A stretch of DNA of 36,381 nucleotides from Octopus sinensis (lineage: Eukaryota). The notes under the pieces are model-generated. The model was not told where the DNA came from and made no database searches. It saw nothing but the letters and a program-made list of their open reading frames with translations. Shown here one piece after another: positions 8,201 through 10,590 of the stretch; within the stretch, counting starts at the first letter, position 1, and the number at the start of each line of letters is the position of its first letter. The translations under genes and the position numbers were made by a program. The stretch covers positions 1 through 36,381 of the forward strand of contig NW_021824694.1 in the NCBI RefSeq assembly GCF_006345805.1, given 5' to 3'.

Positions 8201-10590
8201 GTTTATGAACATATTAAAATGTGTCGATGGCAGTCAAACACACTGGTCATTATAAATTTGGATTGTTTTTATGCTGAATCCGAACTGTTGACATTAAAAG
8301 TGGAATTTCCATTGTCGTTGGTAATTTACCAAACAAGAAGAAAATATCATTGTGTGGCTTCTTTATCAAATAATCAACTGGTTTGTAGTAATTTGGGAGA
8401 TGCATGTCATTTGTATTTTGTTGATATTGATGAAATACATTCGAGTGTGAAGGAAATAAAACAAATAAAGATACCTGAACCATTAATATTGAGAAGAGAA
8501 GATGGAAATTATTCTGATGAAATCAAGCATATTAAAGTTACTGATGAAGATGTCATCATTGTCTTAAACGAAAGATTCATCATTTTCTTCAACAGTGATG
8601 GTCAATATTTACATCCAATCAGACACTACATCGATTTTGATTATTTTGTTGATAACAAGATGACAACTGATGACAGTTTTTTGTACATTTATGGTGAGTG
8701 GAAGAAATATTTGCATTCATTTAGCTATAAAAACACTTTGTGTTTGACCCACAAGGGGGAATACAAGGGAATATTTTTAAATAAAAGAATTTATAAAGAT
8801 GAAGTAGAATTCTGCAGTATAGACTGTAAAGGACCAAGATTTGTTGGAAGCCCCACAGCGGGATGGAGAGAGAATGAATTGTATGTTGAAGGGTTGTTTA
8901 TGGTGAATCGAGACAGCTTCCCGGTTGCTCGTTTACAAACAGACAAATTTCCTGTTCAAGTAAAAGATTTCGATGTCTCTGAGGAAGGAAAGACAGTTGT
9001 GTGTGAAAAAGCCAATAATGGAAATGTTAAAATATTCAATGAAGACGGCCAGTTGCTATGTCACAGAAATGTTGCAAGTTTAGTTGGTGGTGTGTGTTTT
9101 ACACAAGAATCACACATAATGGCCACGGTTCCGAAAAGGAAAGAAATATTTCAACTGAATGGAGAAGATTTGCAGACATCTCAAGTTTGGCCGAGTCTCA
9201 TCCCTTATGGTGTAATATGGAGAAAAGTGGCGGGTATTTACTGGTGTGTACATAATGAATTGATTGAATGTCATTGCATAAAGATTGATGGGGACCAAGT
9301 GAACATTCTGGAATCTGTGTCGTCATTAAATCTTGATTCTGGTCTTCGTTTCCCTTCCATTACATCTGAAACGAACAAGGAAATATTCAGTAATGAATCA
9401 ATTAATAAATTGGAATACAGAGGAGGAGATGGAGATGGAGGAGGAAGAAGAAGAGGTAAATCAGGTGAAATAATTGGTAAAGGTAGATTAAAGGTGAGAT
9501 GTGGTAATTACATAGCGGAGATTAATAATTCAGGAATTGATGAAATATCACTGAGGAGACTTCCATATAGGACAGCAATGGTCCCTTTTTCCATTCCTGC
9601 ATTCGAGGAACCTGTTGATTATGATTTGAGGGACATTAGGGACCGGAACAGTAAACTAATTAAGTTAGATGAGAATGTGAGTGTGTTGATATTTCGAGAA
9701 AGTGTCACATTAATCAGAACAACAACAACAACAACAGTGGACATACTTCAACATGAACAACAACAACGACCACCACTGGACATATGTCGGTGGACAGAGG
9801 AATGTTTCATTGTCGCCTTTGGGAGAGAAATGAGGGTCTTCGACAGGGATCTCCGTCATTTAAAAACAATCAGAACTGAGAAATACTACAACAGAATTTA
9901 TAAATATAACGACAATCAACTCGTGTGTGGTGGTCATTATATTAGAGACATAACTCAAGAAGAGAGAGACAAGAAATACCAAAGAATATGGGAGAACAAC
10001 AAGGATTACTATTATTGCAAAGACCCCAACATCTTTGACCCTTATTATGTGGATGTGGTTGATATCAAAGATGGGAAATGTAAAGATGAAGTGTGTCATG
10101 GAAGATGAAGAGAAAAGGAAGGTTTGCGGGAGATGAAGGGGTGGATGGTGTGGGAGTCACATCTTTTGGTGATGTTGTTGTTGTGAGGAGGGAGATGAAG
10201 GAAGAGGACAAGCCTGTATGGTGGAAGATTTTTTGTGTTGTGGAATGGTTCAGGGAAAAGTCTTTGGTGAGGAGGATAGGAACAAAAGCCACTATAACTT
10301 CTAATCTGCAATATTATATTCCAAGACGTCATTTAACCATAATTGGTGAATGTGTTTATATAACAGATAGAAGAAACAATATTTATGAAATACCTCAACA
10401 TATTGAAGAGGAAATAACTGAAAATAATGAAATCCTGATTTATGAATATAATCCAAAATATTTACTCCTCAGAGAGGATGATAATGAAGTCTTTGAAGTT
10501 CTTGGTTTGGATGTTTCAGACAATTCTTTGATGGTTTTTGGAATTATTCCTGGACGTCAATCTTTTGCTTTCTTTTATTTTGACAAATAA
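5214..10590 (+). CDS. Paralog A: giant single-exon multi-beta-propeller (NHL/TolB-like) protein, ~1,793 aa if five 1-nt deletions are repaired (intact gene with assembly errors, or young pseudogene)
   Basis: ORFs 5214-5969, 6171-7448, 7214-10108 and 10093-10590 are collinear pieces of one protein when compared with B and C. One base is missing at ~5944, ~6037, ~6073, ~7283 and ~10101; 5377+5=5382 nt is divisible by 3. Recurrent blade motif (D/x)(I/M/V)C(R/F)W...V(T/A)xP and NHL-like segments such as PHIAVFQGTLYVPDTQLNRVLLY and GNVKIFNEDGQLL. Confidence 0.75.

What the first reader, a model, noticed from the sequence alone, without database searches (positions are those of the whole stretch)
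10095..10320. Hypervariable, almost purely non-synonymous patch in the last propeller
Hand alignment of A ~10100-10320 with B ~23595-23817 (~74 codons) gives about 23 amino-acid-changing codons, one codon indel and only 1-2 synonymous changes. The preceding ~9300-9900 stretch is nearly identical between A and B, and C is far more divergent in this same segment. That is the pattern expected from diversifying selection on a ligand-contacting surface.
Basis: partly seen in the sequence, partly recalled or inferred. Interest (0 to 1): 0.72.

Follow-up and report, generated by a model that had tools for sequence, protein, structure and literature searches.

The report
Octopus propeller proteins with variable faces
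The patch is one corner of the fast-changing face of a large octopus gene family whose proteins chain six propeller domains, two of which vary from copy to copy as binding surfaces do, so the family may be an undescribed set of recognition proteins.

Summary
The counts hold: 23 of 73 A/B codons change the amino acid, 2 are purely synonymous, and there is one codon indel. The clustering is beyond chance (p=1e-4). On its own the patch does not prove selection: omega 2.3, CI about 0.9-8, p=0.10.

The genes belong to an uncharacterised Octopus family of about 1,790-aa, intronless proteins with six NHL-like propellers. Variable sites concentrate in propellers 4 and 6; 87 of 103 fall in the predicted top-face loops (hand register). 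At 115 sites chosen from 27 other paralogs, A/B show 42 amino-acid changes and 1 synonymous (omega 4-5, p<=1e-8), also outside the patch. Synonymous divergence in the patch is not raised, and no donor paralog was found.

Against: A's patch is identical in its O. vulgaris ortholog, B may be a pseudogene, omega is only about 1.3 against C, and no 3D model could be made. Verdict: diversification between paralogs on a binding face is likely; ligand and function are inferred.

The parts
5189..10590 (+). Gene A: intronless, about 1,790 aa, N-terminal region plus six NHL-like propellers. Broken in this sequence by a 2-bp loss near 5196 and 1-bp losses near 5943, 6043, 6069, 7281 and 10101
   Evidence: O. 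vulgaris ortholog P0008 reads through all of these positions
18670..24086 (+). Gene B: closest paralog of A in propellers 4 and 6. In-frame TGA at 18982-18984 and a 1-bp loss near 21746; possibly a pseudogene
30256..35542 (-). Gene C: more distant paralog, 8-bp loss near 33421. Its last 884 residues match O. sinensis model LOC118768539 (P0001) except for 2 residues in a Thr run and 1 substitution
10102..10323 (+). The patch in A (B 23595-23819): three variable loops separated by nearly invariant strands of propeller 6
10097..10143 (+). Predicted d-a top loop (B 23589-23636): 7 A/B amino-acid changes, 6 of 16 sites family-hypervariable
   Evidence: hand register
10189..10230 (+). Predicted b-c top loop (B 23685-23726): 5 A/B changes, 13 of 14 sites hypervariable
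10282..10329 (+). Predicted d-a top loop (B 23778-23825): 6 A/B changes, 0 synonymous, 13 of 16 sites hypervariable. A and B share a loop type not seen in the 27 other close paralogs
9932..10045 (+). Long predicted b-c top loop just upstream of the patch (B 23424-23537): 6 A/B changes, 0 synonymous, 10 of 38 sites hypervariable; much shorter in C-type paralogs
9653..10581 (+). Propeller 6 of A (B about 23145-24077): variable module
8090..8893 (+). 40 of 281 sites have four or more residues among 11 paralogs
8900..9650 (+). Propeller 5 of A: family-homogenised module (2 of 250 sites with four or more residues).
5700..6750 (+). C-like tract in A (propeller 1 and start of 2): A groups with C here and with B elsewhere, so exchange between paralogs is real
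   Evidence: 5800-6600: 191 sites AC|B against 7 AB|C; the tract is also in P0008 where that model covers it

Best explanation
The patch is three of the top-face loops of the last of six NHL-like beta-propellers, in an Octopus family of cytoplasmic proteins that expands in tandem. The steps are:
(1) Shown: copies exchange sequence. Propellers 2, 3 and 5 and the strands stay alike across paralogs, while the top loops of propellers 4 and 6 become copy-specific.
(2) Well supported, but from only three DNA copies: amino-acid change at those loop sites ran several times faster than synonymous change, i.e. diversifying selection between paralogs. A copy then keeps its face, at least over the 2.5 My between two species.
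(3) Inferred: the top faces of propellers 4 and 6 bind a ligand, as NHL top faces do, and each copy has its own specificity on a shared scaffold.
(4) Speculative: the ligands are foreign (pathogen or mobile-element proteins or nucleic acids), so the cluster is a germline repertoire of intracellular sensors. Confidence is about 0.75 for steps 1-2, 0.65 for step 3, and 0.4 for step 4.
For: Variable sites among 11 paralogs covering all three domains: 40 of 281 (P4), 2 of 250 (P5), 36 of 314 (P6). Mean p-distance 0.22 in P4 and P6 against 0.06-0.10 in P2, P3 and P5. Hand register: 87 of 218 top-loop, 2 of 94 bottom-loop and 14 of 266 strand sites are hypervariable, p=3e-14. A/B at 115 independently chosen sites: 42 changed, 1 synonymous, omega 4.7 with shared dS 0.058 (p~1e-12). 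This holds with the pair's own residues removed (4.0), against neighbouring codons only (4.8), outside the patch (81 codons, 26 changed, 0 synonymous) and with multi-nucleotide hits allowed (4.1, p=1.5e-8). M2a over M1a on A/B alone: p=7e-9, p=0.008 with multi-hits. All 214 top-loop codons, not chosen by variability: omega 2.0, p=0.001. Three putative ortholog pairs against O. bimaculoides: 127 of 445 top against 143 of 1,029 framework residues differ. W, R and Y are enriched 2-3 fold at variable sites. NHL likeness. No signal peptide or membrane helix by hydropathy in 4 of 4 full-length members.
Against: Patch alone: p=0.10. Top loops with multi-hits: omega 1.6, p=0.06. Top loops against C with local dS: omega about 1.3, p=0.09 and 0.16. 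Null simulations with no omega above 1 but strong nucleotide-rate variation gave up to 3.9 with shared dS and up to 12.5 with own dS in 40 replicates, so the nominal p-values overstate the case. A and P0008 differ at only 2 of 213 top-loop residues. B carries a stop, and its lineage may be relaxed (p=0.017 by one polarisation, 0.24 by another). The strand register was made by hand after seeing the variability, and no model exists. No expression or functional data. No RING, B-box or NACHT domain to suggest an effector.
Confidence: 0.65

Rival explanations
1. No positive selection: the top loops are simply unconstrained (omega about 1), the framework is kept alike by purifying selection and conversion, and B drifts as a pseudogene.
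For: B's stop and frameshift. B has 29 derived changes at family-invariant sites against 9 synonymous; A has 17 against 18. Background omega is 0.55-0.75. Against C the top loops give about 1.3, not significant. Rate-variation nulls reach 3.9.
Against: Drift cannot raise dN above dS: 42 of 115 changed against 15-27 expected for dS 0.06-0.12. Both lineages are enriched at variable sites (B 17 of 115 against 29 of 1,004; A 8 of 115 against 17 of 1,004). The 22-residue bottom loop of P6 has 2 variable sites.
Confidence: 0.15
2. The patch is one or more conversion tracts from an unsampled paralog, so it is older than its flanks. Short tracts from close paralogs kept by selection would be compatible with the best explanation.
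For: Conversion is rife: the C-like tract in A, homogenised domains, and 3' duplicates of another paralog type behind B and C. At 12 of 23 differing sites both residues occur in other paralogs, and 17 of 42 changed variable codons differ at two or more bases.
Against: Synonymous divergence is not raised: 2 of 47, where a five-fold rise would give p=0.009; A and B against C show 10 of 19 and 10 of 20. The best single donor among 27 explains 9 of 23 sites. A and B stay sisters in the propeller-6 tree and share a private third loop.
Confidence: 0.12
3. Selection is real but the ligands are the animal's own or genomic parasites' RNAs or proteins: copies specialise like Brat/TRIM71-type regulators rather than immune sensors.
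For: The closest solved relatives are RNA-binding NHL domains (PMC4015489, passages). R, W and Y are enriched at variable sites, and the top loops are less acidic than the bottom loops. Faces are stable between sister species.
Against: Net charge of the top loops ranges from -11 to +6 across copies, mean about -1, not uniformly basic. Most TRIM genes outside the B30.2 classes have one or two orthologues (PMC3137616, passages).
Confidence: 0.25
4. Artefact: sequencing error, misassembly of near-identical copies, or a mutation hotspot.
For: Six small deletions in A that its ortholog lacks point to indel errors. No ortholog of B's patch was found among the fetched proteins (best 51 of 75).
Against: A's last 162 residues are identical in another species' assembly. 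B's residue occurs in other paralogs at 19 of 23 sites, and only 1 of 29 patch differences is CpG-type. The same loops vary in 27 other proteins.
Confidence: 0.04

Closest known systems
TRIM-NHL proteins (Brat, TRIM71/LIN-41, TRIM2/3) and mollusc TRIM2-like NHL clusters
   Same: Weak but consistent sequence likeness: 12 of 13 PDB profile hits are NHL domains, best E 5.6e-4. Atlas feature hits at 0.92 to mollusc TRIM2-like NHL clusters. Top face defined by b-c and d-a loops binds the ligand (PMC4015489, passages).
   Different: Six propellers rather than one; no RING or B-box found; tens of tandem copies; hypervariable rather than conserved top face; top face not uniformly basic.
Podospora HNWD non-self receptors (het-d, het-e)
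   Same: Concerted evolution of a propeller framework with diversifying selection on d-a and b-c positions of the top face (PMC1805685, passages); a modelled two-propeller clamp (PMC12222747, passages).
   Different: WD40 repeats homogenised blade by blade within a gene, with NACHT and HET domains. Here whole domains are homogenised between genes, the blades are very divergent, the fold is NHL-like and there is no NACHT. A working analogy, not kinship.
TRIM5alpha and fish ftr/btr/trim35 multigene families (B30.2)
   Same: Lineage-specific TRIM-related expansions with positively selected variable loops on a C-terminal binding domain, with recombination (PMC3137616, passages).
   Different: B30.2 beta-sandwich, an intact RING-B-box-coiled coil and antiviral evidence; none of these here.
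Coral tachylectin-2 homolog
   Same: Invertebrate propeller-type lectin homolog with high non-synonymous variation and positive selection (PMC2880987, abstract; that tachylectin-2 is a propeller is recalled).
   Different: Allelic variation at a small lectin; here paralog variation in a 1,790-aa protein with no signal peptide.
Cephalopod tandem arrays (protocadherins, C2H2, S-crystallins)
   Same: Large clusters shaped by duplication and suggested gene conversion (PMC9068888, passages).
   Different: This family does not appear in the passages read.

Membership tests
TRIM-NHL | N-terminal RING finger | tested here: not met
   Pfam found none in 8 window ORFs or in 13 of 14 homologs; P0054 alone has ankyrin plus a sub-cutoff RING, perhaps a fused gene model
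TRIM-NHL | B-box | tested here: not met
   No Pfam B-box; Atlas leads for the N-terminal 200 aa include B-box clusters only at 0.85 or lower, below the tool's 0.9 mark. An unannotated upstream exon is not excluded
TRIM-NHL | Coiled coil before the propeller | not tested
   Residues ~60-150 look helical by eye; no predictor was run
TRIM-NHL | NHL-type six-bladed propeller | tested here: inconclusive
   PDB profile E 5.6e-4 to TRIM71 and 0.004 to Brat; Pfam NHL E 0.002, below cutoff, in 1 of 14; Atlas 0.92; internal P3/P4/P5/P6 homology, hhalign up to 95%. A profile of the C-terminal region alone found no NHL hit. No 3D model
TRIM-NHL | Electropositive RNA-binding top face | tested here: inconclusive
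   Loop net charge -11 to +3 (P4, 13 sequences) and -8 to +6 (P6, 24 sequences), against -6 to -16 on the bottom; a sequence count, not electrostatics
NLR / HNWD receptors | NACHT or NB-ARC domain | tested here: not met
   No such Pfam hit in 22 of 22 proteins scanned
NLR / HNWD receptors | Concerted evolution plus diversified top-face sites (works-like feature) | tested here: met
   the face rests on a hand register
Secreted propeller lectins | Signal peptide | tested here: not met
   Highest 19-residue hydropathy in the first 40 residues is 0.74 or lower in 4 of 4 full-length members; crude test
Immune recognition repertoire | Binding of non-self ligands, or induction by infection | not testable with these tools
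   No expression or binding data available

The most novel reading that the evidence does not exclude
Octopuses carry an undescribed germline repertoire of intracellular variable receptors: tens of six-propeller NHL proteins in which two variable propellers (4 and 6), possibly closing as a clamp, sit on a conversion-homogenised scaffold with swappable N-terminal modules. They would recognise pathogen or mobile-element molecules and make up an NHL-fold counterpart of fungal HNWD and vertebrate TRIM-B30.2 sensors.
Probability: 0.3. Interest if true: 0.85.

Novelty: new variant of a known kind. Interest (0 to 1): 0.6.

Why it matters
Cephalopods lack adaptive immunity (recalled), and a large, fast-diversifying family with binding-surface signatures is a direct candidate for how they tell non-self from self or follow mobile elements. 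The variable positions are mapped, so specificity can be tested domain by domain. The evolutionary pattern itself (homogenised scaffold, diversified top face) is known from fungi and vertebrates. What looks new is the six-NHL architecture with two variable modules. Six searches aimed at the family or the pattern listed no paper on it; the library lacks most subscription papers, and genome-paper supplements were not read and may list the cluster.

Tried and rejected
No 3D model could be obtained, so face assignment rests on a hand register anchored on the Brat alignment and the P6-P4 profile alignment. The taxa of 14 unnamed homologs stayed unknown (two are 39% and 32% identical), so 'Octopus only' holds for named hits: 64 of 64, 15 of 15, 44 of 44. 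No DNA of other paralogs was reachable, so PAML/HyPhy-type tests on many sequences were impossible. Pfam gave nothing above cutoff for the window's ORFs. PDB search with the C-terminal profile gave one irrelevant hit. only matched P4 to itself. Own-dS fits for A/C and B/C hit bounds and were discarded (redone); one A/C row did not converge; scripts 42 and 56 crashed in part and were rerun. The first ortholog counts were inflated by gene-model gaps and replaced. One search's nulls had too many variable sites (247-357) and were replaced. A P4-P6 co-variation test gave r=0.52 (p=0.015, 13 sequences) but 0.03 (p=0.43) within O. vulgaris (11 sequences): uninformative on pairing. Rows dropped: 10 of 66 hits not spanning the patch; P0008 and P0022 as near-duplicates; three ambiguous codons (B residues 1652-1654); A/B residues 1-520 because A is C-like in part of them. 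No tRNA or Rfam match.

Full report
Setting. The window is AT-rich, microsatellite-laden eukaryotic DNA holding three related intronless genes of about 5.4 kb: A (+, 5189-10590), B (+, 18670-24086) and C (-, 35542-30256). All 64 homologs of C's long ORF are uncharacterised Octopus proteins, 33 of them (fragments included) on one 29.2-Mb O. vulgaris contig. C matches O. sinensis model LOC118768539 but for three residues, so the window is very probably O. sinensis (inference). All three genes are broken here. A's six small deletions are absent from its O. vulgaris ortholog P0008, and several sit in short base runs, so they are probably assembly errors. B's TGA is a CGA-to-TGA change and may be real.

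The observation. It stands: 23 of 73 codons change the residue, 2 are purely synonymous, B has one extra codon, and no permutation of 10,000 matched the clustering. C is 43-46% different in the patch against about 10% in 9300-9900. Synonymous steps hidden in multi-hit codons raise the count to about 5, and three codons can be aligned as two indels. A codon model on the patch alone gives omega 2.3, interval about 0.9-8, p=0.10 against neutrality and 0.02-0.03 against the background of 0.75, in a window chosen after the fact.

Architecture. Pfam names nothing above cutoff. A family profile finds NHL domains as 12 of 13 PDB hits (TRIM71, Brat, TRIM2/3, Thin; best E 5.6e-4). Atlas features of a C-terminal fragment point to mollusc TRIM2-like NHL clusters (0.92). 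Profile comparison links the ~250-residue blocks to each other (P3-P6 95%, P4-P5 and P4-P6 84%; P1 and P2 only 31-35%). I read this as a ~190-residue N-terminal part plus six NHL-like propellers (inference; no model). No RING, B-box or NACHT domain was found except a RING in one odd model of 14, and there is no signal peptide or membrane helix by hydropathy.

The baseline is not a clock. A residues ~501-900 and ~1301-1600 match many paralogs at 93-98%, whereas 901-1200 and 1601-1789 match only the ortholog (98-100%; other paralogs 70-88%). A also carries a 1-kb C-like tract. The quiet stretch is therefore homogenised across the family. Among 11 paralogs covering P4-P6, sites with four or more residues number 40 of 281 in P4, 2 of 250 in P5 and 36 of 314 in P6. 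The patch is the densest part (20 of 75) of a two-module pattern.

Where the variable sites lie. In NHL propellers the b-c and d-a loops form the top, ligand-binding face (PMC4015489, passages). Using the Brat alignment and the P6-P4 alignment I assigned strands by hand. Of 103 variable sites, 87 fall in top loops (218 residues), 2 in bottom loops (94) and 14 in strands (266); 18 of the 23 patch changes are in three top loops. A 22-residue bottom loop is nearly constant, so this is not just loop versus strand. The register was drawn after seeing the variability and needs a structure.

Selection tests with outside information. Variable sites were defined from 27 close paralogs, leaving out A, B and P0008. 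At those 115 codons A and B differ in residue at 42 and synonymously at 1: omega 4.7 with shared dS 0.058. The result survives removing the pair's own residues (4.0), using only neighbouring codons for dS (4.8), leaving the patch out (26 of 81 changed, 0 synonymous) and allowing multi-nucleotide hits (4.1). Random-site models on A/B alone favour a class above 1 (p=7e-9; p=0.008 with multi-hits). All 214 top-loop codons give 2.0 (p=0.001). Putative orthologs against O. bimaculoides differ at 127 of 445 top and 143 of 1,029 framework residues.

Results against. With multi-hits the top-loop class drops to 1.6, p=0.06. Against C, with local dS, it is about 1.3 and not significant. Simulations with no omega above 1 but strong per-base rate variation and conversion reached 3.9 in 40 replicates: below the observed 4.7, but far closer than the p-values imply. 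A's patch is 74 of 74 identical to its ortholog and A's top loops differ at 2 of 213, across a split dated at 2.5 My (bioRxiv 10.1101/2023.05.16.540928, passages). There is thus no sign of a running arms race in A, though power is low; pooled over four sinensis/vulgaris pairs, top loops differ at 18 of 567 against 11 of 1,062 framework and 50 of 2,599 in the other propellers (p=0.003 and 0.08). B may be decaying, but both lineages are enriched at variable sites. Only three DNA copies were available.

The conversion rival. An old tract from a distant paralog should raise synonymous differences. They are 2 of 47 in the patch against 37 of 1,076 elsewhere, while C shows 10 of 19. No single paralog supplies more than 9 of 23 residues of either copy, and A and B remain sisters in the P6 tree. 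Short tracts from close, unsampled copies cannot be excluded: both residues occur elsewhere at 12 of 23 sites.

How it most likely works. Duplication and exchange keep a common scaffold, while selection favours new top faces on P4 and P6, after which a copy keeps its face. The faces are rich in W, R and Y, as binding surfaces tend to be (established knowledge). The likeliest role is cytoplasmic recognition of varied foreign ligands. Copy-specific binding of RNAs or endogenous partners is the main functional rival. Steps up to selection are supported here; binding and function are inferred.

Comparison and novelty. It works like Podospora HNWD receptors (PMC1805685 and PMC12222747, passages) and TRIM-B30.2 expansions (PMC3137616, passages), but fails their defining domains, and it fails the RING and B-box tests for TRIM-NHL. 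Searches on the family and pattern (listings only) showed no paper describing it, and six gene ids gave 0 papers. PMC9068888 (passages) and PMC9334734 (passages) do not mention it in what I saw; PMC2880987 was read as abstract only. No supplements were read, and those of genome papers may list the cluster. Verdict: observation confirmed, interpretation partly supported and widened; new variant of a known kind; interest 0.6.

Noticed in passing
window 24279-24743 (+) and 29635-30070 (-): B and C are each followed by a ~430-bp duplicate of a gene end (last blades plus 3' flank) of a different paralog type. In both, the join lies where a TA-rich flank resembles the coding sequence for CVYITD, which suggests unequal crossing-over at a short shared word just after the patch.
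   Followed up: partly
window 18153-18599: 447-bp element with 57-bp perfect terminal inverted repeats (MITE-like) ending exactly where A/B homology begins, about 70 bp before B's ATG. B lacks A's upstream sequence, including an acceptor-like site at A 5060-5071.
   Followed up: partly
window 25404-25754: About 350-bp near-perfect palindrome with perfect arms of 98 and 43 nt; element or assembly artefact.
   Followed up: no
window 15485-15931 (+): 148-aa ORF that looks like a Tc1/mariner transposase fragment (recognition recalled, not searched).
   Followed up: no
window 5189-5730, 18670-19220, 35542-34950: The N-terminal ~150 residues and propeller 1 come in alternative types that are mixed between copies: A has B's N-terminus and C's propeller 1.
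   Followed up: partly
window ~10790-10830, ~24150-24185, ~24580-24605: Each gene end is followed by a conserved flank holding a tRNA B-box-like word on the minus strand (label recalled), perhaps a SINE remnant; ARAGORN and Rfam found nothing.
   Followed up: partly
window 10616-10762: Long CTT-type microsatellite expansion right behind A's stop, short in B and C.
   Followed up: no
proteins P0054, P0071, P0095, P0097: Some database models join family members to ankyrin plus RING, C2H2 zinc fingers or DUF4371; real fusions or annotation joins, unresolved.
   Followed up: no
window 1039-1225 and 36098-36284; 12884-13195, 13928-14436 and 26325-26799: Dispersed repeats shared between intergenic stretches.
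   Followed up: no
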